In this document: positions 234 to 36,640 of the stretch, piece after piece
Numbering within the stretch: position 1 is the first letter of the stretch
How the letters are laid out: the number at the start of each line of letters is the position of its first letter
DNA from: an uncultured Collinsella sp.
Lineage (GTDB): Bacteria; Actinomycetota; Coriobacteriia; Coriobacteriales; Coriobacteriaceae
Assembly (NCBI GenBank): GCA_900544845.1
Contig: UQWV01000002.1
Coordinates: forward strand, 20,721-84,720
Length of the DNA: 64,000 bases
Direction of reading: 5' to 3'
Position numbers and translations under genes: made by a program
Notes under the pieces: generated by a model
Seen by the model: the letters and a program-made list of their open reading frames with translations, nothing else
Databases searched by the model: none
Told to the model about the DNA's origin: nothing

Positions 234-369
234 TGATTTCCCGGGGTCGGGGAAACGGGTTATTTTGCTCGGCACCCCATCCCCACCCTTTTCTATCGCA
301 AACCATAGCTTTTACCTTGGGCTTCGCCTGTGTGCGGGGCCCTTTTGCGTGCTACCATATCGACAGTAA

Positions 370-565
370 TAATCGATGGCCTAGATGGTGGTGCGGAGAC
401 GCACGAATGCGCGGTTTTCCTGCGCGTTTGGGAGAATCGGGGTGCAAGTCCCCGGCTGTGCCAGTAACCGTAATTCCTCTTGGCCCGGGATGGCCGCGTC
501 GCAGATCGGACGACGCGCCCGGGTCGGTAAGGTTAAGTCGGATCGCCTCCCATCTTGCACGCGGC
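370..565 (+). promoter_or_regulatory. Candidate cobalamin (B12) riboswitch in the 5' leader of the giant surface-protein gene
   Basis: Read directly. GGGAGA-atc-GGGGTGCAAGTCC-ccg-GCTG-tg-CCAGTAACCGTAA at 430-474 matches the RF00174 core GGGAA..GGUGnAAnUCC..GCnG..CCCGCnACUGUAA. GGGATGGC at 487-494 matches the GGGAAGGC element. AAGTCGGATCGCCTCC at 533-548 matches the B12 box AGyCAGGAnACCUGCC. It is on the + strand, ~140 nt upstream of the ATG at 699. Confidence 0.6.
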
Positions 566-698
566 CGCGGCGCATGCCGCCGGTACGCGTTGGGCTCTGG
601 AGGGAAGGGGGACCCCGATGGGGGTACTCGAGCGCAATACGCGCGATGACGTGGGGCAGCCGCTGGGCAATGCTCCAAGTGCAGACAGTAGGAGACAA

Positions 699-3600
699 AT
701 GGATATGTTTGAGGACGAGTGTCAGCGTGCCTCGTGGCGTCGTCATGGGGTGATTGCGCGCGGCGTAGCCAGGCGCGGTCTGGTGGCCTTCCTGGCGTTT
801 GCCATGGCTTTTGGCACCACGCCGGCACAGCTGTGGGCCGAAGGCGCCGAGGGCATTGCCGACGCCGTGACTCAGGCCGCGACGGGCGGCGAGGGCGCGG
901 CGGCCGACGATGGCGCTGCTGCCGATACCGGTGTGAACGGTGCGCCGGCGAGCGCTGCTGCCGATGGCGCCGACGCGGATCAGGGCGCAACTGCGAGTGC
1001 CGCGAATGGCGATGACACCGACACGGGCAACGCGACTGAGTCTGAGAACTCTGCTGCGACGCCTGTCGCTTCGGAGCAGGGCGAGCCGAAGGCCGCTGCC
1101 GCTTCTGCCACGACGCTTTCCAGCGAGGCCAAGGTCTTCATCCAGGACACCAAGGATAAGGACAACTCGTATTCCACGAAGTCGGGGGCGCTCAAGGCTG
1201 GCGAGACGCTTTGGGCAAACATGTACGATGAGGACGAGGATGACCTCTACGGTTCTTCCTACTCCGTCGACAATCCCGGCACCTGGACTTACGCCTGGCT
1301 TGCCGGCACGACCAAGGCCAGCAGCAACGTTGCCGACTACACCGAGGTCGTAGGCAACGAGCAATCGCTCACCGTTACCGATGCCATGGTGGGCAAGTAC
1401 CTCATCTGCAAGGTGACGGCGGATGGCAAGGACTACTACGGCCCCTCGGTTTCGTACGGCTCGGGCATTAACCCCAACTACATCCCCGGCCCCGTGCTGG
1501 ACGCCGGCCAAATGGAGCTTTACAGCGTCAAGCTGAATAGCGACACGCCGAGCATAGGCGATACTCTGACGGCGACTCCGTACAAGGATTGGTCGAGCCC
1601 CGCGGGCTCTGACGCCAAGGTCACCTACACCTGGTCCGCTTCCACCTCTTCCTCCTCGGGCTTTACCAAGATCGAGGGCGAGACGGGCGCTACGCTCGTG
1701 GTGGGCGACGACCTCGAGGGTAAGTACATTAAGGTCGAGGCCACTGCCGGCGTCAACACGGTGAGCAAGACCACTTCCAGTAAGGTCAAACAGGCCGGTG
1801 CGGTCGAGATTTCGGCCGTGTCCATTATCAACACCAAGGACAACACGAGCGTCTTTGCGGTGGGGGATACCGCTAAGGCTCGCGCCAAGGAGAAGGGCGG
1901 TGCGTCCGGCGCGTTCGTCGACGCGAGCAAGCTCAACTATCAGTGGCAGTGCTCTGACACCAAGAGTGGCACGTATACCGACATTGCGGGCGCCACGGGT
2001 GAGACCCTCGAGCTTACCGACGCTTTGGGCGGCAAGTACCTCAAGTGCAAGGTGTCTTCGAAGATCGGCTCTTATAGCTTGACCAACTCGACGGGCGCTC
2101 TCGTTGCGGCTACCGGTTCAATTAATATCACCAAAGTGTCCATGAGCCCCTCCTCGGGCAAAGTCGAGGTTGGTTCCACGATCACGGCGACCGCCACGGC
2201 GGGTTCCACCGACGTTACCACCGATTCGCATGTCACGTGGCAGTGGTATAAGGGCACCTCGAACACCGCAAGCTCGTGCAACACGCCTATCGAGGGTGAG
2301 ACCGGCAACACACTGACAGTGACCGCTGCCCTTAAGGGCTACTACGTCGTGGCCAAGGCCAACGGCGGTTACGGTGAGCAGAGGCCTAACGGCTATTATG
2401 CGGCGGGTCCTGTCTCCATCGCTGGCCAAGTTGAGCTCTATGACGTGCAGTTTGAGGGCTCTCCTGCCACCAACGGCGTGCACGTGGGCGATAAGCTCAA
2501 GACTAAGGTGCGCAAAAAGGACGGTTCGCGCTACAGCTATATCGACCGCACCGATAATGTGACCTACCAGTGGCAGTATGCAAATAGCAGCTCGAGCTCC
2601 GACTCCGCTTACACCGATATCCCCGGTGCCACCGAGGCCGCCTATACCGTTGACGCTGCCTATGCCGGCAAGTATCTGCGCGTGAAGGTGACGAGCGAAA
2701 ACACCGTTTCCAGCACGCAGAAGAAGAGCTCATACGGCCAGACTGTTGCCCCGCTCGGCCCCGTGACGCTTAAGGGTCAGTACAAGCTGGCAGGCATTGA
2801 GCTTGCCGATAAGAACGTTACGCTGAGCGTGGGTTCAAAAATCACGCCGAGTGTGCAGGTGCCGGGCAGCTGGTCGGGCTCGACGGAGGATGTGCCCGAC
2901 GATGCCGAGCTCACCATGGCGTGGTATGCCAAGGGCGAGGGCGATGCCGATTGGACCGAGCTTACCGACGGCATCGATACGACCGATGGCAGCCTGACTA
3001 TTTCAGACGTGCTTGTTGGCAAGCGCATCAAAGTTACGGCGAGCGCCCTCGACAACACCGTTGAGTGGGTTTCGCCCGATAGCGTTACCGCAGCGGGGGA
3101 GTATAACCTGCTGCGCGTGACCACTACGCCGCAGATCAATAGCGATTCGACCCATCTCGTCTCGGGCGATAGCGTTAAGGCGACGGCGCAGGCCAAGCGT
3201 GCCGACGGTTCGACCACCAACGGTATCGACGTCACCGACCGGGCGACTGTTGCCTGGTATGCGGCCGACGACGCGAAGGCTCCCGCGGCCGACTGGACGC
3301 TTCTGCCCGATATGTCGGGCGCCACGGCAACGGTTTCGGCTTCTGCCGCGGGTAAGTATCTGAAGGCTGTCGCCACGAGCGGCAGCTCGACGGTTGAGCT
3401 CGTCTCTGTCAATCCCGTGATCGCCGCAGGCTCGCTTGAGGCCGCAGTCCAAAAGCTCAACGATGCCAATAAGCAGATCGCTGTTGATTACAGCGCCAAG
3501 GGCGGCAACGTCAACGATGTTCTGAAGGCGCAGCTTGCCGATCTGGGATTTACCGATATCGACGTCAAGGTCTCTGAGGGCGGCGTTACCTTTAAGGCCG

Positions 3601-6600
3601 GGGACGCCAAGGCTACGGTCGGTATCTCCGACGCCCAGGATAAGACCAACGGCGATGTGACGTTCTTCTTCATTGACCCCAACGACTACACCGGTTACAA
3701 CATCGACGGTCTGCGTAGCGCCGATGTGGTGTTTGAGCTGTCGCGCGATGGCAAGACCGAGTACTACCAGCCCAACAAGTCGGTGCAGGTTGCTTGGGAC
3801 GAGGCCCGCGTTCAGCAAATGCTCGACGATGCGGCCGAGCAGGTTGCCATCGGTTACGCTGCGGGCGATTCGGCCGAGTCCGTTACGTCTAACCTCACGC
3901 TTCCGTACCGCGCGGGTTCTAAGAACAAGTTCGAGGTTAGCTGGAAGAGCTCCGACGGCGATGTCATTTGGCCGTCCGGTTATGGCTGGGACGACTACAC
4001 CGGTAAGGTGACGCGCGTTTCGAGCGATCGCACCGTAACGCTGACCGCGACGGTTTCGTTTGTGAGCGGTGGCCCGAGCGATGTCGAGGGCTCGCACGAC
4101 TTCGCCGTGACCGTCAAGGGCGACCCCGAGAAGGTCGCTGCCGACAAGAAGGCACTGCAGGAGAAGGTCGATGCGGCCTTTACCTACGACAATATCAAGT
4201 ACTTCGACACCAAAACGGTTGCCAACAAGGACGGCCTGACCGCCGACCTGCAGATGCCGCGCACGAGCACGCTCAATATCGACGGCAAGTACTACAAGGT
4301 CGAGTACTCCGCCAGCACCGATGACATCACGTTTAACGGTTACAAGGGCACGGTCTACCAACCGCTGCCTGGCACCGAGGCAGCGAAGACCAAGGTCACC
4401 CTTACGGTGACCGATAAATCCAACGCCGAGGTCACGGCAAGCAAGACCCTCGACTTTGCGATTGCTCCGCAGGACCAGGACGAGCTCGATGCCGAGCTTT
4501 CTCTTATGGAAAAGGCGAAGACCGGCTATGCTGCCGCCATTCTGAATGGCCAGGACGCTAGTGCCGTTTCGACCGACATGCACGCGTTCCAGAAGGCGTA
4601 TCTTGATGCCGACGGCAACCTTGCCTGGAGCTACAACAAGGCAACGACCGATTCGACGTCCCTTGGCATTGTTCCGGTTGACCTGCCTGGTTATGACGCG
4701 ATGTCCGGTCAGGACTGGCGCCTGTTTAAGTCGAGCAACAGCTCCATTGTTTCTGCCGAGAATCTCAAGGTCACGCAGCCGCAGTACAACACCAGGGTTG
4801 TCGTTTCCTCGCGCCTGACGAGCGAGAAGTACGCTCGCTACGCTGAGCGCTATCCTGGCAACGCTACGTACGCTAAGCTTGCCAACCAGGACGTGTCGGC
4901 AAAAATCACGGTTCTGGGCACGAGCGGCCAAAACAGCCCGGAAGTGACGGCGACGTGCTCCGTCATTGGCATCGATGCCAAGGGCAAACAGCAAACGTGG
5001 GCTGCCGCGACGCAGTACACGCTCAAGAATGGCTCGACGGCCGCCGATCTTTCCGAGGAGCTCTTTAAGCAGGCCGGTCTCAAGGCCGACTACGATCCCA
5101 ACGGCTCTTGGGGTTGGGTGCTCAATTCCATTACGTCGCCTTTCGACGCCGATCGCACCCTTGCATATGACGCTGCTACGGGCGCATATTGGCAGCTATT
5201 CATTAACGGCGTCGCTGCATCGGTGGGTGCCGGCAACTACATCCTCGAGGCGGGCGACTCTGTCGTCTGGGGTTACTCGAAGTACGGTGACGCTGCGCCC
5301 ACCGACCAGCTTTCGGTAAGCTGCGCCGTTATCGGCCAGGACGCTTCGGGTGCTCAGCAAACGTGGGCTCAACCTACGACTGCGTTGGTGGAAGAGGGCG
5401 CAACTGCCGCCGACCTTTCCGAGCAGGTCTTTAAGCAGGCCGGTATTGGCGCCGACGTCCAAACCGGTTCGTATGGTTGGTTCCTCAATTCGCTGACTTC
5501 TCCGTTCAATAAGAGCGTGAAGCTTTCGACCGTACAGGTTAACGAAAGCACCTGGAAGTCCTGGCAGTTCTTCGTTAACGGCAAGATGGCCAATGTCGGC
5601 GCCGGCAACTACACGCTTAAGGCCGGCGACGAGGTTGCCTGGGTCTATGGTTCCAATGGCACCATGCCCGGTCAGGTTTCTGTCTCGATGGAGATCATCG
5701 GCAAAAAGGACGGTAAGGCCCAGCGCTGGACCGATCCTTCGATGCAGGTGTTTGTCGAGGGCACGACGATCAAGGACGCCACTGCCGCCTACTTTGATAC
5801 CTTGGGCATCAAGTCCGAGATGTACGATCAACATGGCTTCTGGGGCGTTCACAGCCTTGTCTCTCCGCTTGACGGCACTAAGTTGGCCGGCGCTTGGTCG
5901 TTCTTTGTTAACGGTGTTCCCGCAAATCAGCTTGACAGTGACTACGTGCTCAAATCGGGCGACACGATTGTCTGGGCTTATGCTCCCGGCGATACGGTGC
6001 CTAATCCCGACGAGGTCGTAGTCGATCCGAGCGCCCCGCGTCCGACCGATTGGAAGTCCGATTGGGATGGCAAGTCCAATGCGGCGGTCGAAAACGTTTC
6101 GACGCCTACGGGTGCGCTAGCGAGCTCCTGGACGTTCGATTGGAAGGCATATTCTGGTTCGGCGTATCCCAACGCGAGTGAACCTATCGTTGTGAACGGC
6201 AACGTGTATCTTGCCGTCAACAAGCGCTTGCTAAAGATTGACGCCGAGTCGGGCAAGGTCCTTGCCGAGTCGAATCTTAAGACTGCGGTCGGTTACACCT
6301 CGCGTCCGATTTATGCGAACGGTTTGGTTATCGTTCCGCTTGACGGCGGTGCGGTCCAGGCCCTGACGGCTGACGCGCTCACAACGGTTTGGGTCACTGA
6401 CTCCGTGAGCAGGACTGCTCAGTCGAATTCTCAGCTGACGGTTGATGGCAATTACCTCTATGTCGGCACCGTTGATGTCGACTATGGAACGAGTACGTAC
6501 AATAACGGTCATCTGACGCGTATTAATATCCTGACCGGCGCTGTTTCTTGGCAGCATGTCAATGCCGACGAGGGTTATTACTGGACGGGCGCGACGGTGG

Positions 6601-7889
6601 GCGATGACTATGTCTTGGTTCCCACCAGTGCCGGTACCGTCGAGATGCTCAGCAAGTCTTCGGGCGATGTGCTTGGAAGTGTTTCGGTTGGTGCTGTTGT
6701 CAACTCAAGCTGTGTGATTTCGGCTGACGGCGGCCATGCCTATCTAATCTCGCGCGACGGCAAGCTGCACGTGTTGGCGATTTCTGATGGCGACTCACGC
6801 GATGCGGATGCCGCTTCGCGTATTACCGAGGAGCGCGTAGTTGACCTTGGCCTTACCGGCTGCGCGTGCGCGCCTACGACGTATGATGGCAAGCTGATTG
6901 TTGGCGGCGAGGTTGCTGGCGGCTCTGCGCTAGCGATTATTGATCCGGCCAGCGACTTTGAAACGACGCTGGTTTCGTCTGCTGATGGCACTGCGCTTCC
7001 CACTGGTGGCATCAAGGGCGCTCCGCTGGTGAGCGTCCAGGGCGAAGACGCGTATGTCTACTTCACGGTTAACTACGGCGAGAGCCCTGATTTCGTTAAC
7101 TACACCTCGGGCGGTGGCGTATATCGTTACAAGTTGGGTGACGCTGGGGCTTCTGGTGTGTTTAGCGCAACAGGCCACAACAACTACTGTGACTCGCCAA
7201 TCGCTTGTGATGCCCAGGGCAACTTGTACTACATCAACGACTCTGGCACGCTGTTCAAGCTGAATGCTGGCGTTAAGGTTTCGTTTAGCGCTGGCGAGGG
7301 GTCCAAGGTCGATTTTCAGACTACGGCCGCCAACGGCTCTATCGCCAAGCCTGCCGATCCGACACGCGAGGGCTATACCTTCGCTGGTTGGTATACCGAC
7401 GAGGCTTGTACGGAGGCGTATGACTTTAGCGCTGCGGTGACGGCTGATATGACGCTGTATGCCAAGTGGGTCAAGAATGCCGTTAACCCTGGTGGTAACG
7501 GCGGCAATGGCGGCTTCAATGGCGGCTCGGGTAATGCCGGTGCTGGTTCTGGCTCCGGTAACGGCACAAACGGCCAGCAGACTGGCGGTGCTGTTGCTCC
7601 GGGCCAAAAGCCGGTGTCCACCACGACCAAGACCGAGACCAAGGACGGCAAGGATTCCAAGAAGGATTCCGACAAGTCCGACAAGAAGGACAGCAAGAAG
7701 TCTGATAAGAAGTCCAGCAAGTCCGGCTCCAAGTCGGATACGGGCGCGGCCGCCACGACTACCGCTAAGAAGTCCGCTGAGGCTCCTGTGCAGCAGTCTG
7801 GCTTCAATCCGCTTGCCATCGTTGGTGTTGCGGCCGGCGTAATCGGCCTTGCCGTCATCGGTGTGTTCGTATTCACCAAGCGTCGGTAG
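699..7889 (+). CDS. Giant (~2,396 aa) C-terminally anchored cell-surface protein with Ig-like repeats, 3x DUF4430-like modules (putative B12 binding), a PQQ-like beta-propeller and a Listeria-Bacteroides repeat
   Basis: Long ORF 555..7889. The start was refined to the ATG at 699 (or 705), preceded by AGGAGA at 690-695. The signal peptide is RRGLVAFLAFAMAFGTTPAQLWA, followed by an acidic low-complexity stretch. Nt 1250-3400 hold ~7 repeats with the signature YxWQ…GATGxTLxLTDAxxGKYLKCKV. Nt 4950-5995 hold three ~115-aa repeats ending …W(Q/S)(L/F)F(I/V)NG…GAGNY.L.AGD.V.W.Y. Nt 6180-7270 hold PQQ-like propeller repeats. The motif GYTFAGWYTDEACTEAYDFSAAVTADMTLYAKW is at 7371-7470. A G/N-rich then K/D/S-rich linker follows, ending in the terminal TM helix LAIVGVAAGVIGLAVIGVFVFTKRR with no LPXTG. 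Confidence 0.85.
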   Translation: MDMFEDECQRASWRRHGVIARGVARRGLVAFLAFAMAFGTTPAQLWAEGAEGIADAVTQAATGGEGAAADDGAAADTGVNGAPASAAADGADADQGATASAANGDDTDTGNATESENSAATPVASEQGEPKAAAASATTLSSEAKVFIQDTKDKDNSYSTKSGALKAGETLWANMYDEDEDDLYGSSYSVDNPGTWTYAWLAGTTKASSNVADYTEVVGNEQSLTVTDAMVGKYLICKVTADGKDYYGPSVSYGSGINPNYIPGPVLDAGQMELYSVKLNSDTPSIGDTLTATPYKDWSSPAGSDAKVTYTWSASTSSSSGFTKIEGETGATLVVGDDLEGKYIKVEATAGVNTVSKTTSSKVKQAGAVEISAVSIINTKDNTSVFAVGDTAKARAKEKGGASGAFVDASKLNYQWQCSDTKSGTYTDIAGATGETLELTDALGGKYLKCKVSSKIGSYSLTNSTGALVAATGSINITKVSMSPSSGKVEVGSTITATATAGSTDVTTDSHVTWQWYKGTSNTASSCNTPIEGETGNTLTVTAALKGYYVVAKANGGYGEQRPNGYYAAGPVSIAGQVELYDVQFEGSPATNGVHVGDKLKTKVRKKDGSRYSYIDRTDNVTYQWQYANSSSSSDSAYTDIPGATEAAYTVDAAYAGKYLRVKVTSENTVSSTQKKSSYGQTVAPLGPVTLKGQYKLAGIELADKNVTLSVGSKITPSVQVPGSWSGSTEDVPDDAELTMAWYAKGEGDADWTELTDGIDTTDGSLTISDVLVGKRIKVTASALDNTVEWVSPDSVTAAGEYNLLRVTTTPQINSDSTHLVSGDSVKATAQAKRADGSTTNGIDVTDRATVAWYAADDAKAPAADWTLLPDMSGATATVSASAAGKYLKAVATSGSSTVELVSVNPVIAAGSLEAAVQKLNDANKQIAVDYSAKGGNVNDVLKAQLADLGFTDIDVKVSEGGVTFKAGDAKATVGISDAQDKTNGDVTFFFIDPNDYTGYNIDGLRSADVVFELSRDGKTEYYQPNKSVQVAWDEARVQQMLDDAAEQVAIGYAAGDSAESVTSNLTLPYRAGSKNKFEVSWKSSDGDVIWPSGYGWDDYTGKVTRVSSDRTVTLTATVSFVSGGPSDVEGSHDFAVTVKGDPEKVAADKKALQEKVDAAFTYDNIKYFDTKTVANKDGLTADLQMPRTSTLNIDGKYYKVEYSASTDDITFNGYKGTVYQPLPGTEAAKTKVTLTVTDKSNAEVTASKTLDFAIAPQDQDELDAELSLMEKAKTGYAAAILNGQDASAVSTDMHAFQKAYLDADGNLAWSYNKATTDSTSLGIVPVDLPGYDAMSGQDWRLFKSSNSSIVSAENLKVTQPQYNTRVVVSSRLTSEKYARYAERYPGNATYAKLANQDVSAKITVLGTSGQNSPEVTATCSVIGIDAKGKQQTWAAATQYTLKNGSTAADLSEELFKQAGLKADYDPNGSWGWVLNSITSPFDADRTLAYDAATGAYWQLFINGVAASVGAGNYILEAGDSVVWGYSKYGDAAPTDQLSVSCAVIGQDASGAQQTWAQPTTALVEEGATAADLSEQVFKQAGIGADVQTGSYGWFLNSLTSPFNKSVKLSTVQVNESTWKSWQFFVNGKMANVGAGNYTLKAGDEVAWVYGSNGTMPGQVSVSMEIIGKKDGKAQRWTDPSMQVFVEGTTIKDATAAYFDTLGIKSEMYDQHGFWGVHSLVSPLDGTKLAGAWSFFVNGVPANQLDSDYVLKSGDTIVWAYAPGDTVPNPDEVVVDPSAPRPTDWKSDWDGKSNAAVENVSTPTGALASSWTFDWKAYSGSAYPNASEPIVVNGNVYLAVNKRLLKIDAESGKVLAESNLKTAVGYTSRPIYANGLVIVPLDGGAVQALTADALTTVWVTDSVSRTAQSNSQLTVDGNYLYVGTVDVDYGTSTYNNGHLTRINILTGAVSWQHVNADEGYYWTGATVGDDYVLVPTSAGTVEMLSKSSGDVLGSVSVGAVVNSSCVISADGGHAYLISRDGKLHVLAISDGDSRDADAASRITEERVVDLGLTGCACAPTTYDGKLIVGGEVAGGSALAIIDPASDFETTLVSSADGTALPTGGIKGAPLVSVQGEDAYVYFTVNYGESPDFVNYTSGGGVYRYKLGDAGASGVFSATGHNNYCDSPIACDAQGNLYYINDSGTLFKLNAGVKVSFSAGEGSKVDFQTTAANGSIAKPADPTREGYTFAGWYTDEACTEAYDFSAAVTADMTLYAKWVKNAVNPGGNGGNGGFNGGSGNAGAGSGSGNGTNGQQTGGAVAPGQKPVSTTTKTETKDGKDSKKDSDKSDKKDSKKSDKKSSKSGSKSDTGAAATTTAKKSAEAPVQQSGFNPLAIVGVAAGVIGLAVIGVFVFTKRR

Positions 7890-8771
7890 GTGAGGGCTGT
7901 GTCCAATAAGCCTCAGGACGCCGAGTCCAAGCAGCCCGACTCGTCGTTCATCCAGCTTGACGATGTAAAGCAAAAGGGCGCCGCTTCGGCGGCGTCCGCC
8001 CCTCGGCGCAAGGCGCTTGTTGGCGCCCTGACGGCCGTCTGTATTGCACTCATCATCGTCTCGTTGGGTTTTATCCATCCCTCTACCAGCGGTGCATGGT
8101 CCATCGACTGGATTGCGCGGGCTGTGACAGGGGAGAGCGTCGTTGCCAAGGATGCGTCGGTTTCCGGCTCGACTACCGCTTCGGGTAAGACTGCGCCCAA
8201 GGACTCCAAATCTTTGGACAATGCGAAGGACGAGTCTGAATCTTCGGACAAGAAGTCTGACAAGGATTCGAAGGAGAAGAAGTCCGAAGGCAAGGGTGGT
8301 AAGAAGTCCAGCAACACGTCTGCCGGACAGGGCTCGGAATCTGCTGGTGGAACGAGCTCTTCTGGCGGATCTTCCACGGGCGGCGGCTCGGTGTCTGGCG
8401 GTGGGTCTGCATCCAACGGCGGCAGCGCCTCTGCTGGCAATCAGGGCGGCTCGCAGCAGCCTGACTATGCCACAGTGACGGTCTCGGTTACGTCGAGCGC
8501 CGTGGGCAATCCTGTGTCTTCTAGTGGTACCTTCACCTTTAACAAGGGCGCTACGGTCTACGATGCCCTGTGCGCCCTAGGGCTTTCCGTGAATGCGCGC
8601 GGCACGTCGTACGGCACGTATGTCGCCGCTATCGGCGGCCTAGCCGAGATGGAGCACGGCGCCAAGAGCGGCTGGATGTACTCCGTTAACGGCACAGCGC
8701 CCATGACGGCCTGCAGTAACTACGTTCTCTCCAATGGCGATAACGTCGTTTGGTATTACGTAACGGGTTAG
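7890..8771 (+). CDS. Membrane-anchored (N-in, single TM) protein with S/G/K/D-rich linker and a C-terminal DUF4430-like domain; translationally coupled to the upstream giant gene
   Basis: A GTG start at 7890 immediately follows the TAG at 7887-7889 of the giant gene. The TM segment is ALVGALTAVCIALIIVSLGF. The C-terminus …GTSYGTYVAAIGGLAEMEHGAKSGWMYSVNGTAPMTACSNYVLSNGDNVVWYYVTG fits the DUF4430 signature. Confidence 0.8.
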   Translation: MRAVSNKPQDAESKQPDSSFIQLDDVKQKGAASAASAPRRKALVGALTAVCIALIIVSLGFIHPSTSGAWSIDWIARAVTGESVVAKDASVSGSTTASGKTAPKDSKSLDNAKDESESSDKKSDKDSKEKKSEGKGGKKSSNTSAGQGSESAGGTSSSGGSSTGGGSVSGGGSASNGGSASAGNQGGSQQPDYATVTVSVTSSAVGNPVSSSGTFTFNKGATVYDALCALGLSVNARGTSYGTYVAAIGGLAEMEHGAKSGWMYSVNGTAPMTACSNYVLSNGDNVVWYYVTG

Positions 8772-8832: not shown

Positions 8833-8930
8833 ATGCGAATGGGACTGGGTCGCCGGGTCTCTCTGCAAACAGAAAAGCCGGTTGGAACGTGAATTCCAAC
8901 CGGCTGCGAAGCGAGATTATGTTGGGCCGT

Positions 8931-9338
8931 CTACGACTGCGCGCCCTCGAGGAAAAGGCGGCGGCTAAAGTAGTTGTACCAGGTGACCAGGAACGTGGCG
9001 ATGGCCTTCATGGCCTGGTAGCCGATGCTCAAAAACGTGACGCCCACAAACATGTACAGGTCGTTGAGACCCAGGCCAATCACCGACAGGATGGTGAAAA
9101 TCGTGAACTCGCGCTTGCGGCTCATGCCCTCGCGGTGGTCGAACACGTACTTCATGCTGAGCCAGTAGTTGACCACGACGGACGTGATAAACGAGATCGT
9201 GGTGCTCATCAAAAAGTCGAGATGGAACAGCTCGACGAGTGCAATGAGCATGCCCCAGTCGATGCCAAAGGAGATAAGTCCCACGACAGCGAACTTGAGG
9301 AACTGCTTGGTATGAGGTTGTGCCAGTTCCTTGCGCAC
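8931..9338 (-). CDS. GtrA-family membrane protein (polysaccharide/glycosylation-associated flippase-like)
   Basis: 135 aa with 4 TM helices and the GtrA-like motif KFAVVGLISFGIDWGML…. Confidence 0.8.
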   Translation of the reverse strand: MRKELAQPHTKQFLKFAVVGLISFGIDWGMLIALVELFHLDFLMSTTISFITSVVVNYWLSMKYVFDHREGMSRKREFTIFTILSVIGLGLNDLYMFVGVTFLSIGYQAMKAIATFLVTWYNYFSRRLFLEGAQS

Positions 9339-9557
9339 GTAATCACATCCAATGCGTTGACGAATCGAGCAGAGGATACTTTAGAGCTTTTGCAAGGGAA
9401 ACGTAAGGGCTTTGCCAAGAACTATACGAACTCGTCAAATTTGCAAGAGACAATCCGCAAACGTCGTAAATCCTTCCGTAAACGAGCGAGGCCCACGAAC
9501 AACACGGTGCTCGACGCGCGTCATCCGTGGGTCCCGTAGTGCAACGAGGAGGCCGAG

Positions 9558-9955
9558 CTACTTGGTCTCCTCGCCCTCCAGGAAGATCTTTCGGGTCACA
9601 AAGTTGTAGACCATGACCAGTGCGGTGGCGCAAATCTTGGCGATATTGGCCTCGAGCCCCAGGCCGGCGTTGAGCGTCAGCACGATACCGTCGTTGAGAG
9701 CCAGGCCGATCACAGACAGCACGACAAAGATGATGAACTCGCGGCGGCGGCTCATGCCCTCCTTGTGCGCAAACACGTACTTCATGCTCGCGACGTAGTT
9801 AAAGATGAGCGAGACGATAAAGCCGCTGGTGTTGGCGATCAGGATGTTAAGGCCCAGGCCGTAATGGAGCAGATTCATGATGCCAAAGTCGATGACGGTG
9901 GCAATGACGCCGACGACGCCAAACTTCATGATCTGCGCAAGGAGCTTTTGCATGG
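9558..9955 (-). CDS. GtrA-family membrane protein, tandem paralog
   Basis: Start taken as ATG 9955 (MQKLLAQIMKFGVVGVIATVIDFGIMNLL…), giving 132 aa. The ORF track extends to a TTG at 10016. The protein is paralogous to 8931..9338. Confidence 0.7.
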
Positions 9956-10031
9956 TACCTGCCTTAGGGTGGCGCCGGAGCGCCGCGGGGATGACGAACT
10001 CAGCAAGTTTAGCCAATCCCCGCAGGCGGGG

Positions 10032-19488: not shown

Positions 19489-20706
19489 GTGTCTATGCGT
19501 ACCGATGATTTTGACTACAACCTTCCTGAGGAACTGATCGCCCAGGCTCCAGCTGAGCCGCGCGACTCCTGTCGCCTGCTGGTGGTGGATCGCAAGGGCT
19601 CCCAGGCGGGAACGCCGCTGGAGCACGGCGGTACCGTTGAGCACCGCATCTTCCGTGACATCATCGACTATATCGAGCCGGGCGACGTGCTCGTCATCAA
19701 CCAGACGCGCGTGATGCCGGCCCGCCTGATCGGTCGCAAAGCCGGCTCGGGCGGCGTGGTCGAGACCCTGCTGCTCAAGCGCCGCGAGGACGTGGATCCG
19801 CTGGGCCATGTTTGGGAGTGCTTGGTCAAGCCGGGCAAGCGCCTGAAGCCCGGTGCTCATATTGAGTATCGCGCCGGTGGCGCCCATGCGCCCGAGGGGG
19901 CTCCCGTGGTGCTGACGGCCGAGGTCGTCGACTTTGTCACCGATAGCCGCGGCGGCCGTCTAGTGCGTTTTGAGCCGGCTGGTTGCAACGCCGCCGGCGA
20001 GCCGCGCACGCTCGACGAGGCCATTCACGCCGCCGGTCATGTGCCGTTGCCGCCCTACATTACCGATTACGAGGGCGATCCCGAGAAATATCAGACCGTG
20101 TACGCCATGAAGGAGGAGCACTCGGCTGCCGCTCCTACGGCGGGTCTGCATTTTACTCCTGAGCTCATGGCCGCTATCGAGGCCAAGGGTGCCAAGTTTG
20201 CCGCCGTCGAGCTCGAGGTGGGCATCGATACCTTCCGTTTGGTGGAGGAGGACGACCCTACGCAGCACGTCATGCACACCGAGCGCTACCACGTGTCGCA
20301 GGAGGTTGTCGACGCCGTGCATAAGGCCAAGGCCGAGGGTCATCGCGTGATCGCCGTCGGCACTACCGCGGTGCGCTCGCTCGAGAGCGCGTTTGACACG
20401 GACGCGCCGGTGTCCGATCCGGCCGTGACGGCGCGCTATTTTGAGGGGCGTGAGGACGGGGCCGATACGCTCGGCCGCGGTGACATCGTGGTGCGCGAGA
20501 ACGCTACGACGCAGCTCTACCTCATGCCTGGCTCGACCTATCACGTGGTCGACGCGCTGATCACGAACTTCCACGTGCCGCGCTCTACGCTCATGATGCT
20601 CGTGAGCGCGCTTGCCTCCCGCGACCAGATCATGGATGCCTACGCTGCCGCCATCGAGGAGCGCTACCGCTTCTTCAGCTTTGGCGACGCGATGCTCATT
20701 TGTTAG
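19489..20706 (+). CDS. queA: S-adenosylmethionine:tRNA ribosyltransferase-isomerase
   Basis: 405 aa with full-length QueA similarity (…FDYNLPEELIAQAPAEPRDSCRLLVV…). AAGGAG RBS 8 nt before the GTG. Confidence 0.9.
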   Translation: MSMRTDDFDYNLPEELIAQAPAEPRDSCRLLVVDRKGSQAGTPLEHGGTVEHRIFRDIIDYIEPGDVLVINQTRVMPARLIGRKAGSGGVVETLLLKRREDVDPLGHVWECLVKPGKRLKPGAHIEYRAGGAHAPEGAPVVLTAEVVDFVTDSRGGRLVRFEPAGCNAAGEPRTLDEAIHAAGHVPLPPYITDYEGDPEKYQTVYAMKEEHSAAAPTAGLHFTPELMAAIEAKGAKFAAVELEVGIDTFRLVEEDDPTQHVMHTERYHVSQEVVDAVHKAKAEGHRVIAVGTTAVRSLESAFDTDAPVSDPAVTARYFEGREDGADTLGRGDIVVRENATTQLYLMPGSTYHVVDALITNFHVPRSTLMMLVSALASRDQIMDAYAAAIEERYRFFSFGDAMLIC

Positions 20707-21002: not shown

Positions 21003-21122
21003 AACGCCCCCAACGACTACCTTGCATCAATCTAGATAAGTTGCGGTGAGATAGTTCTTGAATTGGCCTTTTTGAAGGCTAAATAGGAACTATCTCACCG
21101 CAACTGCGTTGGGGCGTTTTTT
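21003..21122. repeat. Nested perfect palindrome (REP-like); probable bidirectional terminator between queA-side and the convergent minus-strand gene
   Basis: Outer stem AACGCCCCCAACG/CGTTGGGGCGTT, inner stem AAGTTGCGGTGAGATAGTTC/GAACTATCTCACCGCAACT, then TTTTTT. The inner motif recurs at 29806 and 26532. Confidence 0.6.
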
Positions 21123-24334: not shown

Positions 24335-25474
<1,140 letters not shown>

Positions 25475-26458: not shown

Positions 26459-26604
26459 GGGACGGGGCTAAAAAGACTGGTCTGAAACGTTTGATACCAG
26501 TCTTTTTAGCCCCGTCCCAAATGAACTGCTTCTAAGTTGTGGTGGAATAGGGATTGATTTGCGGCTGATAAGCCAAAAACAGTCCCTATTTCACCGCAAG
26601 CGGT
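26459..26604. repeat. Two adjacent perfect palindromes (REP-like) between convergent genes
   Basis: GGGACGGGGCTAAAAAGACTGGT/ACCAGTCTTTTTAGCCCCGTCCC at 26459-26518. CTAAGTTGTGGTGGAATAGGGA…TCCCTATTTCACCGCAAG at 26532-26604. Both belong to families seen elsewhere in the window. Confidence 0.6.
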
Positions 26605-29886: not shown

Positions 29887-30080
29887 GGTGTAAAAGGCGG
29901 GTCATGCTTGGTGGCGGGTTTGTTATCCGTTTGTAAAGGCTGGGCCGGGCTTGCGGTAAGGGTCTATCAAATGCCCGTAAGAAACCGCAGATAACGCGGT
30001 TGTCGCCTGATCGGGGCCGTATCTTTCCAAACAGCAAAGCGGGCAGGGTGCCCGCGAATCGCATGTATGAAAGGAAGATC

Positions 30081-31019
30081 ATGCTCGATCAGGCTTATTC
30101 TCGTCGTCAGTTCCTCGGCCTCGCTGGTGGTCTTGCCAGCATCGTCGGTCTCGGTCTCGTTGGGTGCGGCGGCTCCGGCGCATCCGATGCCGCCGACAAG
30201 GGTAGCGCCGCTGCTGCCGAGTCCGTCTCCGGCGAGGTGACCTACGACGGTGCCTCTTCGTTCCAGGCTCTCGTCGAGGCCGCTGCCGAGAAGTTCATGG
30301 ACGCCAACCCCGATGTCTCCGTCTCCGGCTCGGGTAACGGTTCGGGCAAGGGCCTGACCGCTGTCGCCGCCGGCACCGTCACCATCGGCAACTCCGACGT
30401 CTTCGCCGAGACCAAGCTTGAGGCCGATCAAGTCAAGAACCTCGTCGACCACGAGGTCGCCGTCGTGGGCATGGGCCCCGTCGTCTCCAAGAACGTGACG
30501 GTCGACGACCTGTCCCTCGAGCAGCTCAAGGGTATCTTCTCCGGTCAGATTACCAACTGGAAGGAGGTCGGCGGCGACGACGCTGCCATCGTCGTGCTCA
30601 ACCGCAAGGCCGGCTCCGGTACCCGCGCCACCTTCGAGGCCGCCGTCTTTGGCGACGAGACCGTCGACTTTAAGGGCGACGCCGAGCTCGACAAGTCCGG
30701 CGACGTCCAGACTCAGATGGGCAGCACCGACAACGCCATCTCCTACCTCGATTTCTCGCACTTTGATGACTCCAAGTTCAACGCCATCAAGGTCGAGGGC
30801 GTCGAGCCCAAGAGCAAGAATGTCACCGACGACTCCTTCAAGATCTGGGCTACCGAGCACATGTACTGCGCTAAGGATGCCGACGAGGCCACCAAGGCCT
30901 TCCTGGAGTTCATGCTTTCCGATGACGTCCAGGGCAAGCTCGTCGAGGAGCAGGGCTTTATCCCCGTCTCTGCCATGAAGGTCGTCAAGGACGCCAGCGG
31001 CAAGGTCTCCGCTAAATAA
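30081..31019 (+). CDS. pstS: Phosphate ABC transporter substrate-binding lipoprotein
   Basis: SRRQFLG Tat-like signal plus LVGC lipobox, and PstS-family similarity. AAAGGAAG RBS. Confidence 0.85.
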   Translation: MLDQAYSRRQFLGLAGGLASIVGLGLVGCGGSGASDAADKGSAAAAESVSGEVTYDGASSFQALVEAAAEKFMDANPDVSVSGSGNGSGKGLTAVAAGTVTIGNSDVFAETKLEADQVKNLVDHEVAVVGMGPVVSKNVTVDDLSLEQLKGIFSGQITNWKEVGGDDAAIVVLNRKAGSGTRATFEAAVFGDETVDFKGDAELDKSGDVQTQMGSTDNAISYLDFSHFDDSKFNAIKVEGVEPKSKNVTDDSFKIWATEHMYCAKDADEATKAFLEFMLSDDVQGKLVEEQGFIPVSAMKVVKDASGKVSAK

Positions 31020-31043
31020 GTAATCGCCCCGGAAAGGTTTGCA

Positions 31044-31952
31044 ATGGCAAAACAGCTGCCAAAGCGCGACCTTGAGAACGTGGGCCTGGGCGTCACGGGC
31101 GCGTGCGTTGCGCTCGTGACGCTTGTCGTTGCCGCGCTCATCTTTATGGTCGCCCAAAAGGGCCTCTCGGCTTTTGTCAAGGACGGCGTCTCGGTCGTCG
31201 AGTTTTTCACCGGCACCAAGTGGGACCTGGCCAACACGGCCAAAAACGGCCTGCCCTACACCGGCGCCCTGCCCCTGATCGTCACCTCGTTTGCGGTCAT
31301 GGCGCTCTCCACGCTTATCGCGCTGCCCATCGCTATCGGCTCTGCCATCTTTGCGGTTGAGATCCAGCCTAAGTTTGGTTCCAAGGTCTTTCAGCCGCTT
31401 ATTGAGCTTTTGACTGGTATTCCTTCGGTCGTCTTTGGTCTGATCGGTTTTCACGTGGTCGTCGGCCTTATGAAGAGCGTTTTCCACGTAAGCACGGGCT
31501 TGGGCATCTTGCCCGGCGCCATCGTGCTGGCCGTCATGATCCTGCCGACGATGACCACGCTTTCGGTCGATGGCCTGCGCGCCGTGCCCGACAGCTACCG
31601 CCAGGGCTCGCTCGCGCTGGGCTACACCCGCTGGCAGACCATCTGGCACGTGGTGCTCAAGTCCGCCATGCCGTCGCTCATGACTGCGGTCATTCTGGGT
31701 ATGACCCGCGCCTTTGGCGAGACGCTCGCCGTGCGCATGGTCATCGGCGGTATCGAGGCCATGCCGACGTCGCTGCTGTCGCCGGCCTCGACCATCACCA
31801 CCACGCTCACCACGTCCATGGCGGTCTATGCCGAGGGCTCGGCCCAGGACGATGTTCTGTGGGCGCTCGGTCTGCTGCTGATGGGCATGAGCCTCATCTT
31901 CATCCTGATCATCCATCTCATTGGCCGCAAGGGGGCGAAGGCTCGTGGCTAG
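31044..31952 (+). CDS. pstC: Phosphate ABC transporter permease PstC
   Basis: 6 TM helices and the EAA-like motif of the PstC family. Confidence 0.9.
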   Translation: MAKQLPKRDLENVGLGVTGACVALVTLVVAALIFMVAQKGLSAFVKDGVSVVEFFTGTKWDLANTAKNGLPYTGALPLIVTSFAVMALSTLIALPIAIGSAIFAVEIQPKFGSKVFQPLIELLTGIPSVVFGLIGFHVVVGLMKSVFHVSTGLGILPGAIVLAVMILPTMTTLSVDGLRAVPDSYRQGSLALGYTRWQTIWHVVLKSAMPSLMTAVILGMTRAFGETLAVRMVIGGIEAMPTSLLSPASTITTTLTTSMAVYAEGSAQDDVLWALGLLLMGMSLIFILIIHLIGRKGAKARG

Positions 31953-32871: not shown

Positions 32872-33740
<869 letters not shown>

Positions 33741-36620: not shown

Positions 36621-36640
36621 CGTCCCGCACGTTTTGTGAA

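What the first reader, a model, noticed from the sequence alone, without database searches (positions are those of the whole stretch)
4950..5995. Three tandem ~115-aa DUF4430-like modules inside the giant protein
Each module ends in a near-invariant …(S/F)WG(W/V)…NS(I/L)(T/V)SP…W(Q/S)(L/F)F(I/V)NG….GAGNY.L(E/K)(A/S)GD.V.W.Y motif. Each module also begins with a conserved C…IG.D…G.QQTWA…T…DL(S)E..FKQAG(L/I) block. Tandem triplication of a putative ligand-binding module implies multivalent capture.
Basis: partly seen in the sequence, partly recalled or inferred. Interest (0 to 1): 0.65.

Follow-up and report, generated by a model that had tools for sequence, protein, structure and literature searches.

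The report
Triple transcobalamin-like B12-binding modules, Collinsella
A giant cell-surface protein of the gut bacterium Collinsella carries three tandem copies of the domain that animal vitamin-B12 carriers use to grip the vitamin, behind a probable B12-sensing RNA switch, so it is most likely a B12-scavenging device of a kind predicted in 2007 but never tested.

Summary
Window 4938-5996 (+), inside one 2423-aa gene (618-7889), encodes three tandem modules of about 110-120 aa. Each passes Pfam DUF4430 on its own. They are 52% (M1-M2) and 32-34% (M3) identical to each other.

- **Fold:** an AlphaFold model (pLDDT 87.6) superposes module by module on the beta domains of haptocorrin, intrinsic factor and transcobalamin. 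A 20-sequence profile of the modules finds those same PDB chains by sequence.
- **Context supporting vitamin B12:**
  - The 5' leader (384-554) is a sub-threshold AdoCbl-II cobalamin riboswitch. Its core nearly matches an above-threshold riboswitch in a related metagenome locus.
  - The next gene (7890-8771) is a membrane-anchored single-DUF4430 protein.
  - A Neobacillus homologue has the same large-plus-small DUF4430 gene pair, an ECF transporter and a canonical cobalamin riboswitch.
- **Not shown:** ligand binding, multivalency, hand-off between proteins and the identity of the transporter. No B12 transporter lies in this window.
- **Prior art:** Burroughs et al. described this class computationally in 2007 as transcobalamin-like SLBB surface proteins. 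Arrays of 2-10 modules occur elsewhere.

Verdict: a new member of a known but experimentally untested kind, of moderate interest.

The parts
384..554 (+). Probable cobalamin riboswitch aptamer (AdoCbl-II-like). P1 is 384-388 paired with 550-554. The core is GGGAGAAUCGGGGUGCAAGUCCCCGGCUGUGCCAGUAACCGUAA. A 65-nt extension hairpin sits in P6. The B12-box-like sequence is AAGUCGGAUCGCCUCCCAUC.
   Evidence: - Rfam RF01689 at 431-547: 27.7 bits against a gathering score of 36.5; E 2.8e-4 locally and 0.029 for the whole window, where it is the only bacterial cis-regulatory hit.
- The core is near-identical to an above-threshold AdoCbl-II riboswitch in L089 (40.3 bits), with two compensatory pairs in P4.
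- Across 56 distinct Collinsella leaders, 99.2% of cells are paired and 3 pairs show double compensatory changes.
559..617 (+). Expression platform. It holds a conserved hairpin (559-563 paired with 586-590, plus an inner stem) and a purine-rich SD-like run GGAGGGAAGGGGG (599-611) before ATG 618. The 3' strand of the aptamer (CGCCUCCCAUCU, 544-555) can alternatively pair with the SD-like run.
   Evidence: RNAalifold consensus and pair counts: the pair 560:589 is CG in 32 sequences and UA in 21. ATG 618 is conserved in every locus. The direction of the switch was not determined.
618..7889 (+). Giant surface-protein gene of 2423 aa from ATG 618. ATG 699 (MDMFEDE...) is an alternative start, used by NCBI for relatives.
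   Evidence: ORF list and translation. The exact product is called on 4 contigs. Pfam finds 3x DUF4430, aBig_2, a PQQ-like propeller and Flg_new.
699..839 (+). N-terminal signal peptide region: a positively charged n-region with RR, the hydrophobic stretch GLVAFLAFAMAF, and ...AQLWA/EG.
   Evidence: Read directly from the translation. The same N-terminus is conserved in relatives P0035 and P0027. No signal-peptide predictor was run.
1122..4934 (+). Variable distal stalk of Ig-like repeats, including aBig_2 at 3825-4118 and weak ZirU-like repeats. It is absent or shorter in other Collinsella alleles.
   Evidence: Pfam aBig_2 at 48 bits. NCBIfam ZirU_fam at 57.7 bits, below its cutoff. Three size classes of about 2400, 2020 and 1160-1290 aa sit behind the same leader.
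4938..5294 (+). DUF4430 / transcobalamin-beta-like module 1
   Evidence: PF14478 at 48.3 bits. The model shows a beta-grasp with a hairpin insert after the helix. Foldseek hits to haptocorrin, intrinsic factor and transcobalamin.
5295..5663 (+). DUF4430 / transcobalamin-beta-like module 2
   Evidence: PF14478 at 47.2 bits. 52% identical to module 1.
5664..5996 (+). DUF4430 / transcobalamin-beta-like module 3, the divergent copy. It has a shorter hairpin and 'LDSDY' in place of 'GAGNY'.
   Evidence: PF14478 at 32.2 bits. 32-34% identical to modules 1 and 2. It is the least conserved module among orthologues.
5997..7274 (+). Beta-propeller of the PQQ/BamB/YxaL type
   Evidence: AlphaFold model with pLDDT 89.9 and pTM 0.90. 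Top Foldseek hits are BamB, YxaL, tetrathionate hydrolase and PQQ dehydrogenases; BtuG is not among the top 50. A homologous propeller gene heads a DUF4430 + ECF operon in L089.
7275..7466 (+). Flg_new (Listeria-Bacteroides repeat) domain
   Evidence: PF09479 at 68.8 bits.
7467..7886 (+). Low-complexity G/N- and K/S/D-rich spacer followed by a C-terminal transmembrane helix (7812-7874) and a KRR tail. There is no LPXTG motif.
   Evidence: Read directly from the translation. There is no Gram_pos_anchor hit.
7890..8771 (+). Second, small DUF4430 gene. It has an N-terminal membrane anchor (8013-8075), a low-complexity linker and a C-terminal DUF4430 (8547-8762). It starts directly after the stop codon of the giant gene.
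   Evidence: PF14478 at 67.9 bits. Translation. The same large-plus-small pair is conserved in Collinsella and in Neobacillus.

Best explanation
The three modules are homologues of the beta (C-terminal, beta-grasp or 'SLBB') domain of transcobalamin, intrinsic factor and haptocorrin. In those carriers, this domain makes the most favourable contacts with cobalamin.

**Architecture.** The modules sit in a Collinsella cell-surface protein. From the membrane outward it reads: C-terminal transmembrane helix, disordered wall-spanning spacer, Flg_new domain, beta-propeller, three DUF4430 modules, and an optional Ig-like stalk.

**Operon.** The operon is the giant gene plus a small membrane-anchored single-DUF4430 protein. 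It is preceded by a divergent AdoCbl-II-type cobalamin riboswitch.

**Proposed mechanism.**
1. When corrinoid is scarce, the operon is expressed.
2. Each module binds one cobalamin or cobamide through the conserved hairpin (S-W/Y-G-W...LNS.TSP) and the W.(L/F)F.NG / GD.V.W.Y core.
3. This concentrates the vitamin at the wall.
4. The ligand passes to the membrane-proximal small DUF4430 protein.
5. It then passes to a transporter encoded elsewhere, of the ECF or BtuFCD type.

**Shown here:** homology, fold, domain order, operon pairing, leader conservation and structure, and the B12-regulated context of homologues.

**Inferred:** ligand identity, one ligand per module, hand-off, the sense of regulation, and the role of the propeller.
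For: **Domain identity**
- PF14478 scores 100.8 bits over 3 stretches, and each module is above the gathering score.
- The model has pLDDT 87.6 and a strand-strand-helix-hairpin-strand-strand topology.
- Foldseek gives haptocorrin 4kki at rmsd 2.6 A and 23% identity, intrinsic factor at 2.7 A, and the transcobalamin beta domain at TM 0.67-0.71.
- The module profile finds 5no0 at E 4.5e-5, 4kki at 2.1e-4 and 2bb5 at 7.5e-4.

**The beta domain alone binds corrinoids**
- Isolated transcobalamin beta domain retains cobalamin through purification and was crystallised with cyanocobalamin and with cobinamide (PMC5599065).
- The cobalamin/beta-domain interface ranks as the most favourable, at about 560 A2 (PMC11107200).
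- Aromatic residues of modules 1-3 align with haptocorrin's corrinoid-contacting Trp359 position. Only module 2 (Phe) is aromatic at the Tyr362 position (PMC4350170).

**Regulation**
- The leader matches AdoCbl-II at 27.7 bits.
- Its core nearly equals a 40.3-bit riboswitch in L089, with compensatory P4 pairs.
- The leader is 88.6-100% identical in all but two of the Collinsella loci in the BLAST table (two of the 80 loci retrieved gave no hit), although the encoded modules fall to 64%.
- Its structure is supported by covariation.

**Context in homologues**
- Neobacillus L087 has a canonical cobalamin riboswitch (119.7 bits), then a large DUF4430 surface protein, a small DUF4430 protein and ECF T, A-A and S genes.
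- L089 has a homologous propeller, then a small transmembrane DUF4430 protein and ECF genes, next to a corrinoid methyltransferase operon.

**Physiology and prior prediction**
- C. aerofaciens is reported to require B12 for growth (PMC6593275).
- The same function was predicted for this clade in 2007 (PMC1796856).
Against: - No binding data exist for any bacterial DUF4430 domain.
- The alpha/alpha-toroid partner domain that completes the pocket in transcobalamin, intrinsic factor and haptocorrin is absent. Affinity per module may therefore be modest.
- The riboswitch hit is below Rfam's gathering score, and its regulatory direction is unresolved. The RNAalifold minimum-energy fold pairs the aptamer 3' strand with the SD-like run, which would fit either polarity.
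- No ECF or Btu transporter is in the operon or anywhere in the 64-kb window.
- The only experimental paper on a homologous system (L. sakei lsa1836-1840) argues for heme uptake.
- Module 3 is divergent and could be structural.
- Contact residues were mapped by low-identity alignment, not by superposition.
Confidence: 0.7

Rival explanations
1. The modules bind heme or another tetrapyrrole rather than cobamides, and the protein serves iron or heme acquisition.
For: In L. sakei, an operon encoding a transcobalamin-beta-like protein (Lsa1839), an alpha-like protein (Lsa1840) and an ECF transporter was reported to contribute to heme uptake. Heme was docked between the two proteins (bioRxiv 10.1101/864751). 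The fold is a general soluble-ligand-binding beta-grasp (PMC1796856).
Against: - The leader here is cobalamin-riboswitch-like.
- The Neobacillus homologue operon has a 119.7-bit cobalamin riboswitch.
- The L089 homologue sits beside corrinoid-dependent methyltransferase genes.
- The heme claim for L. sakei rests on docking and mutant phenotypes, not on binding assays with the proteins.
- No iron- or heme-responsive element was seen next to this operon. The DtxR-like repressor gene at 36527-37138 is 28 kb away.
Confidence: 0.1
2. The modules are structural or adhesive beta-grasp spacers in a giant adhesin. They would bind cell-wall or host glycans or act only as stalk elements, with no role in micronutrient capture.
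For: - The protein is mostly Ig-like repeats, a propeller and Flg_new, all typical of adhesins.
- Other SLBB clades (polysaccharide export proteins, ComEA) are thought to bind sugars.
- Two GtrA-like genes lie just downstream on the other strand.
- The N-terminal stalk is hypervariable between strains.
Against: - The modules belong to the transcobalamin-like clade (hairpin insert after the helix), not the Nqo1/polysaccharide clade.
- The most conserved residues lie in the ligand-contacting hairpin and core motif.
- The array-plus-propeller core is kept in every allele, while the stalk is dispensable.
- The riboswitch-like leader and the ECF-linked homologues point to a small-molecule uptake role.
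Confidence: 0.12
3. The three modules are not redundant copies giving multivalency. They are specialised binders for different corrinoids (complete cobamides with different lower ligands, or cobinamide), or only one or two of them are active.
For: - The residues aligned to the Trp359/Tyr362 specificity positions of haptocorrin and transcobalamin differ between modules: S-W-G-W-V, S-Y-G-W-F and F-W-G with a deletion (PMC4350170).
- The modules are old paralogues at 32-52% identity.
- Each module is conserved as its own orthologous group.
- Module 3 lacks GAGNY.
Against: Nothing tested here distinguishes specialisation from simple multivalency. Other family members carry 1-10 copies, which argues that copy number is flexible.
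Confidence: 0.25

Closest known systems
Beta (C-terminal) domain of transcobalamin, intrinsic factor and haptocorrin (PDB 2bb5, 5no0/5np4, 2pmv, 4kki; Pfam PF14478)
   Same: Same Pfam family and same beta-grasp-with-hairpin fold (rmsd 2.6-4.3 A). It shares the signature W..L/F..(N)G...G.G.Y....GD....W/Y, with aromatic residues at the corrinoid-contacting hairpin.
   Different: The animal proteins have one beta domain fused to an alpha6/alpha6 toroid that closes over the ligand. Here there are three beta-like modules in tandem with no toroid, and a beta-propeller follows instead. Sequence identity is only 13-23%.
Bacterial transcobalamin-like SLBB surface proteins, predicted to scavenge B12 (Burroughs, Balaji, Iyer and Aravind 2007, PMC1796856). 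An example is the Neobacillus niacini operon in L087.
   Same: - Secreted, surface-anchored multidomain proteins with Ig-like or beta-propeller fusions.
- A second paralogous SLBB gene in the same operon.
- A cobalamin riboswitch upstream.
- A predicted role in B12 scavenging.
   Different: - The Firmicute versions pair DUF4430 with a prenyltransferase-like toroid, use LPXTG or SLH anchors, and are followed by ECF T, A and S genes.
- The Collinsella version has a PQQ-like propeller, a C-terminal transmembrane anchor and no transporter genes in the operon.
- Its riboswitch is divergent and is missed at Rfam's threshold.
L. sakei Lsa1839/Lsa1840 + ECF (lsa1836-1840)
   Same: An extracellular transcobalamin-beta-like protein associated with an uptake system in a Gram-positive bacterium.
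   Different: It has a single beta-like protein plus a separate alpha-like protein. It was reported as a heme importer, and it has no tandem array.
Bacteroides surface B12-binding lipoproteins BtuG, BtuH, BtuJ and BtuK
   Same: The proposed working is the same: riboswitch-controlled, surface-exposed binders that capture cobamides and relay them to a transporter.
   Different: They are not homologous. BtuH's binding domain has 'no known structural homologs'. BtuJ is DUF4465. BtuG is a PF16819 propeller, whereas the propeller here is BamB/YxaL-like. They also work in a Gram-negative outer-membrane context with BtuB.
Tandem NEAT-domain heme receptors of Gram-positive bacteria (IsdH/IsdB to IsdA to IsdC to IsdE); named from my own knowledge, not tested here
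   Same: The concept is shared: several copies of a small ligand-binding domain on wall-spanning proteins, with a membrane-proximal paralogue passing the ligand inward.
   Different: The fold is unrelated, the ligand is heme, and the proteins are sortase-anchored.
RUMGNA_00854 of Ruminococcus gnavus (PDB 3u7z), a single-domain DUF4430 protein
   Same: It is the only solved bacterial DUF4430 structure. It matches single modules at TM 0.65-0.67.
   Different: It is a stand-alone 100-aa protein deposited as a 'putative metal binding protein' of unknown function.

Membership tests
Pfam PF14478 (DUF4430; transcobalamin-like C-terminal / SLBB transcobalamin-like clade) | HMM match above the curated gathering score of 23.8 bits | tested here: met
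   Modules score 48.3, 47.2 and 32.2 bits individually. The whole protein scores 100.8 bits over 3 stretches.
Pfam PF14478 (DUF4430; transcobalamin-like C-terminal / SLBB transcobalamin-like clade) | Beta-grasp core with a beta-hairpin inserted after the helix (Burroughs 2007 definition of the clade) | tested here: met
   The model has strands 3-13 and 19-31, helix 36-47, hairpin 50-57/60-67, and strands 84-90 and 109-115. The same pattern occurs in modules 2 and 3. Superposition on transcobalamin, intrinsic factor and haptocorrin beta domains gives rmsd 2.6-4.3 A.
Pfam PF14478 (DUF4430; transcobalamin-like C-terminal / SLBB transcobalamin-like clade) | Binds a corrinoid | not testable with these tools
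   Only alignment-level conservation of the contact hairpin and aromatic positions could be examined.
Eukaryotic-type cobalamin carrier (transcobalamin / intrinsic factor / haptocorrin architecture) | N-terminal alpha6/alpha6 toroid (PF01122, or a prenyltransferase-like domain) paired with the beta domain | tested here: not met
   The 2444-aa translation has no PF01122 or PF00432 hit at E<=0.01. Firmicute relatives do have the toroid.
Cobalamin riboswitch (Rfam clan CL00101; RF01689 AdoCbl-II) | Covariance-model score at or above the gathering score of 36.5 bits | tested here: not met
   The score is 27.7 bits at 431-547. E is 2.8e-4 in 601 nt and 0.029 in the whole window.
Cobalamin riboswitch (Rfam clan CL00101; RF01689 AdoCbl-II) | Conserved core (GGGA(G)AA junction, P4 with a GUGxAAxU loop, GC, P5, ACCGUAA, B12-box 3' strand) and helices supported by covariation | tested here: met
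   - The core aligns to model positions 17-72 with a 65-nt insertion in P6.
- It is near-identical to a 40.3-bit riboswitch in L089, with two compensatory P4 pairs.
- In 56 Collinsella sequences 99.2% of cells are paired, and there are 3 double-compensated pairs, 2 in the P6 extension and 1 in the platform hairpin.
Cobalamin riboswitch (Rfam clan CL00101; RF01689 AdoCbl-II) | Ligand-dependent structural switch controlling expression | not testable with these tools
   Alternative pairing of the aptamer 3' strand with the SD-like run is predicted. The polarity is unknown.
DUF4430-ECF corrinoid uptake operon (Firmicute type; Burroughs 2007) | A large multidomain SLBB protein plus a second paralogous SLBB protein in one operon | tested here: met
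   Genes 618-7889 and 7890-8771 are adjacent on the same strand with no gap.
DUF4430-ECF corrinoid uptake operon (Firmicute type; Burroughs 2007) | Adjacent ECF transporter genes (CbiQ-like T, CbiO-like A, S component) | tested here: not met
   Downstream lie two GtrA-like genes on the opposite strand, then FBPase and DegV. The only ABC importer found in the window is PstSCAB. ECF genes are present in the L087 and L089 homologue loci.
BtuG-type B12-binding beta-propeller (PF16819) | Sequence or fold match of the propeller to BtuG | tested here: not met
   There is no PF16819 hit. The top 50 Foldseek hits are BamB, YxaL, tetrathionate hydrolase and PQQ dehydrogenases.

The most novel reading that the evidence does not exclude
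The [DUF4430]x3-propeller unit could be a Gram-positive counterpart of the Bacteroides BtuG/H/J relay. In this reading the three old, non-identical modules are tuned to different corrinoids (complete cobamides with different lower ligands, and cobinamide). The BamB-like propeller would replace the transcobalamin alpha domain as the lid or as the docking platform for hand-off. The strain-variable N-terminal stalk could let some strains take B12 from host carriers or from neighbouring cells. All of this would be under a divergent class-II cobalamin riboswitch that current Rfam thresholds miss.
Probability: 0.2. Interest if true: 0.7.

Novelty: new member of a known kind. Interest (0 to 1): 0.4.

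Why it matters
Competition for vitamin B12 and its analogues shapes the gut community. The surface capture machinery is well studied only in Bacteroides. For Gram-positive and actinobacterial gut species there is a 2007 computational prediction and no biochemistry.

This Collinsella locus offers a compact test case with three separable transcobalamin-like modules, a membrane-anchored paralogue and a candidate riboswitch. C. aerofaciens is a prevalent human gut species reported to need B12. The locus also shows that the gene's outer stalk is swapped between strains while the B12-like core is kept. In addition, it flags a cobalamin riboswitch variant that standard annotation misses.

Tried and rejected
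1. I recalled that Bacteroides BtuH carries DUF4430. The paper says its binding domain has no known structural homologues and never mentions DUF4430. Dropped.
2. A 3-sequence profile against PDB sequences gave only spurious DsbA hits at E about 0.02. A 20-sequence profile was needed to reach transcobalamin and haptocorrin.
3. The top-ranked Foldseek hits of the triple model (tri-ubiquitin, USP7 UBL strings) have rmsd above 13 A. They only reflect strings of beta-grasp domains and are not meaningful.
4. I tested whether the propeller is BtuG-like. It is BamB/YxaL/PQQ-like.
5. I looked for a B12 transporter or a cobamide salvage cluster in the window.
   - The nitroreductase gene plus two His_Phos_1 genes at 45568-47686 looked like BluB/CobC, but they score far below the CobC cutoff (92.5 and 64.9 against 162.9).
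   - The ABC operon at 30000-33740 is PstSCAB.
6. A whole-window Rfam scan at gathering thresholds found nothing. The other sub-threshold hits are eukaryotic miRNA or snoRNA models matching simple hairpins.
7. I tried to obtain residue-level cobalamin contacts from Wuerges et al. 2006, but the paper is not held. Contact mapping therefore rests on alignment to the haptocorrin/transcobalamin motif described in PMC4350170.
8. L090, a distant propeller homologue, has no DUF4430, ECF or riboswitch context and is uninformative.
9. ORF 8889-9539 (+) is spurious. The real genes there are GtrA-like genes on the minus strand.
Full report
**Observation.** The window holds one very long ORF on the + strand (555..7889 from the first TTG; ATG at 618; a further ATG at 699). 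It translates into three consecutive segments with the quoted motifs.
- A three-way alignment gives 53% (M1-M2) and 32% (M1-M3) identity with 26 invariant columns.
- BLASTP E-values are 8e-36 for M1-M2 and 8e-15 for M1-M3 and M2-M3. DNA identity is 61-66%.
- An exhaustive HMM scan finds exactly three copies, at residues 1441-1559, 1560-1680 and 1682-1792 counted from ATG 618.
The nucleotide range is right.

**Domain identity.** Pfam finds DUF4430 (PF14478) three times, at 100.8 bits against a gathering score of 23.8. It also finds aBig_2, a weak PQQ-type propeller and Flg_new. Each module alone passes the threshold, at 48.3, 47.2 and 32.2 bits.
- **Fold.** An AlphaFold2 model of the 353-aa region, built with 32 homologues, has mean pLDDT 87.6. 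It shows the same strand-strand-helix-hairpin-strand-strand pattern three times.
- **Structure search.** Foldseek against the PDB gives module-sized matches:
  - haptocorrin 4kki (rmsd 2.6 A, 23% identity);
  - intrinsic factor 2pmv and 3kq4 (2.7 A);
  - many transcobalamin entries;
  - the isolated transcobalamin beta domain 5no0/5np4 (TM 0.67-0.71);
  - the R. gnavus DUF4430 protein 3u7z.
  - The nominally top hits (tri-ubiquitin, USP7) have rmsd above 13 A and only reflect strings of beta-grasp domains.
- **Sequence search.** A 3-sequence profile found nothing real in the PDB. A 20-sequence profile of bacterial modules (A4) hits the transcobalamin beta domain (E 4.5e-5), haptocorrin (2.1e-4) and transcobalamin (7.5e-4). 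Intrinsic factor and 3u7z follow further down.

**Organism and population variation.** All 80 best genome loci are Collinsella or Collinsella-like uncultured-bacterium records, including C. aerofaciens ATCC 25986. The exact protein is on four gut-metagenome contigs.
- Behind one conserved leader and ATG, the gene occurs in three size classes:
  - about 2400 aa, with three modules at about residue 1440;
  - about 2020 aa, with four modules at about residue 900;
  - about 1160-1290 aa, with three or four modules at about residue 172.
- The constant core is [DUF4430]3-4, propeller, Flg_new, spacer and transmembrane anchor. The N-terminal Ig-like stalk is optional.
- The C-terminus is a hydrophobic helix plus KRR with no LPXTG. 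The modules therefore lie between the membrane-proximal propeller and the distal stalk.

**Operon partner.** Immediately after the stop codon, gene 7890-8771 encodes a protein with an N-terminal membrane anchor, a low-complexity linker and one C-terminal DUF4430 (67.9 bits). The pair is syntenic in other Collinsella. Two GtrA-like genes on the minus strand, FBPase and DegV follow. No transporter is present.

**Leader RNA.** Reading 380-560 by eye suggested a B12 riboswitch core.
- **Rfam scores.** At gathering thresholds Rfam reports nothing. A permissive scan gives AdoCbl-II (RF01689) at 431-547, scoring 27.7 bits against 36.5. E is 2.8e-4 locally and 0.029 for the whole window. It is the only bacterial cis-regulatory hit there.
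- **Conservation.** The leader is 88.6-100% identical in all but two of the Collinsella loci in the BLAST table (two of the 80 loci retrieved gave no hit), even where the modules are only 64% identical.
- **Covariation.** I tested a cobalamin-type structure on 56 distinct sequences (window coordinate = alignment column + 375). It comprises P1, a hairpin, the GG:CC junction helix, P4 with loop UGCAAGU, P5, P6 with a 65-nt extension, and a platform hairpin.
  - 99.2% of cells are paired.
  - Three pairs carry double compensatory changes: 110:147 (UA 25, CG 24, UG 7), 123:139, and 185:214 (CG 32, UA 21).
  - The structure was derived from these sequences, so the slid control is not independent.
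- **Independent support.** In a related metagenome locus (L089), an AdoCbl-II riboswitch above threshold (40.3 bits) has almost the same core.
  - L089 reads GCUAUACCAGUAACCGUAA...AAGUCGGAAUGCCUCUUCAUC. The window reads GCUGUGCCAGUAACCGUAA...AAGUCGGAUCGCCUCCCAUC.
  - P4 differs by two compensatory pairs.
  - The window element mainly differs by a longer P6 insertion, which explains the lower score.
- I rate it about 85% likely to be a cobalamin riboswitch. Its polarity is undetermined. RNAalifold pairs the aptamer 3' strand with the SD-like run before ATG 618.

**Context of homologues.**
- **Neobacillus niacini (L087).** A canonical cobalamin riboswitch (119.7 bits) precedes five genes: a DUF4430x2 + prenyltransferase-like + LPXTG protein, a small DUF4430 protein, and ECF T, A-A and S genes.
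- **L089.** A propeller protein 46% identical to the window's propeller is followed by a small transmembrane DUF4430 protein (62.9 bits) and ECF T, A-A and S genes. They sit next to a riboswitch-controlled corrinoid methyltransferase operon.
- **Family size.** In 1.84 billion representative proteins, the module profile finds 772 proteins (99 at E<=1e-30). Many are 800-3176 aa long with 2-5 stretches, and one has 10.
- **Two architectures appear:**
  - DUF4430(n) + PQQ-like propeller, sometimes with Flg_new, as in the window;
  - DUF4430(5-10) + alpha/alpha toroid + SLH.

**The propeller.** The model (pLDDT 89.9, pTM 0.90) is a BamB/YxaL/PQQ-type beta-propeller. BtuG is not among the top 50 hits. 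Its recurrent linkage with DUF4430 and ECF genes suggests a partner role, but nothing shows that it binds B12.

**Literature.**
- The isolated transcobalamin beta domain binds cobalamin and cobinamide (PMC5599065), and its interface with cobalamin is the most favourable one (PMC11107200).
- Burroughs et al. 2007 (PMC1796856) already defined the transcobalamin-like SLBB clade.
  - They noted bacterial surface proteins with Ig, beta-propeller or toroid fusions.
  - They noted a second paralogous SLBB gene in the operon and CbiO/CbiQ neighbours.
  - They noted that such organisms usually lack key B12 biosynthetic enzymes, and predicted B12 scavenging.
- A L. sakei preprint assigns heme uptake to a related operon.
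- C. aerofaciens is listed among B12-requiring gut strains (PMC6593275).
- The Bacteroides BtuG, BtuH and BtuJ proteins are functional analogues, not homologues.

**Residue-level hint.** In the profile-to-haptocorrin alignment, haptocorrin's corrinoid-contacting R357-S-W359-G-P-Y362 aligns with S-W-G-W-V in M1, S-Y-G-W-F in M2 and F-W-G (with a 2-residue deletion) in M3.
- This hairpin and the W.(L/F)F.NG / GD.V.W.Y core are the most conserved parts among Collinsella orthologues of M1 and M2.
- M3 is more variable.
- This rests on alignment at 13-23% identity and is a lead, not a proof.

**Conclusion.** The finding is real and the DUF4430 reading is right.
- **Best explanation (confidence about 0.7):** a B12-riboswitch-controlled surface corrinoid-capture array that works with a membrane-anchored paralogue and a transporter encoded elsewhere.
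- **Rivals:** heme binding, adhesion or structural roles, or specialised rather than multivalent modules.
- **Novelty:** the kind was predicted computationally in 2007, and arrays of up to ten modules exist. This is a new member of a known but experimentally untested kind.
- **What is added here:**
  - the Coriobacteriia architecture, with a propeller instead of a toroid, a transmembrane anchor and no linked ECF genes;
  - the strain-variable stalk;
  - the missed riboswitch variant.
- **Interest:** 0.4.

Noticed in passing
window 384-617: A divergent AdoCbl-II-type cobalamin riboswitch candidate lies in the 5' leader of the giant gene. Rfam misses it at gathering thresholds (27.7 against 36.5 bits). 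It is 88.6-100% identical in all but two of the Collinsella loci in the BLAST table, and near-identical in its core to a 40.3-bit riboswitch in L089.
   Followed up: yes
window 618-4934, compared with loci L007-L086: The gene is length-polymorphic between Collinsella genomes, at about 2400, 2020 and 1160-1290 aa. The N-terminal Ig-like stalk is gained, lost or swapped, while the leader, signal peptide, DUF4430 array and propeller are kept. Many assemblies break contigs at this locus.
   Followed up: partly
window 1122-3600: A long run of Ig-like repeats about 90 aa each carries a recurring Y.W......Y..I.GAT...Y.....D.GK.(I/L).(V/C).V motif. It matches the NCBIfam ZirU family weakly (57.7 bits, cutoff 100). 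Its function is unknown.
   Followed up: no
L089 1-15642: A metagenome relative has an operon of a PQQ-like propeller protein, a small transmembrane DUF4430 protein and ECF T, A-A and S genes. It is divergent from a riboswitch-controlled corrinoid methyltransferase cluster (three URO-D-like genes, cobW, a B12-binding protein and RACo). This links the propeller type to corrinoid uptake.
   Followed up: partly
window 8931-9338 and 9558-10016 (minus strand): Two small GtrA-like membrane protein genes lie immediately downstream of the DUF4430 operon and are syntenic in other Collinsella. ORF 8889-9539 on the + strand is spurious. A strong hairpin at 8876-8905 may act as a bidirectional terminator.
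   Followed up: partly
window 45568-47686: A nitroreductase-family gene is followed by two histidine-phosphatase genes whose best NCBIfam match is alpha-ribazole phosphatase CobC. The scores are far below the cutoff (92.5 and 64.9 against 162.9). This is not convincing as a cobamide lower-ligand cluster.
   Followed up: partly
window 19489-20706 and 24335-25474: The queuosine genes queA and tgt are present. A paper read here notes that queuosine synthesis is rare in Actinobacteria, apart from two Coriobacteria species.
   Followed up: no
window 30000-33740; 36527-37138: There is a phosphate ABC transporter (PstS-like binding protein, two permeases and an ATPase). A DtxR-type iron-dependent repressor gene lies further on.
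   Followed up: no
window 21039-21105, 26463-26515, 40130-40188: Strong simple hairpins in intergenic positions match eukaryotic miRNA models far below threshold. They are probably terminators or other stem-loops.
   Followed up: no
window 237-255 and 319-342: Two terminator-like hairpins follow the upstream UbiB/ABC1-like gene, which ends at 233. An AT-rich TAATAAT box at 367-373 lies just before the riboswitch P1 and could be the -10 element of the operon promoter.
   Followed up: no
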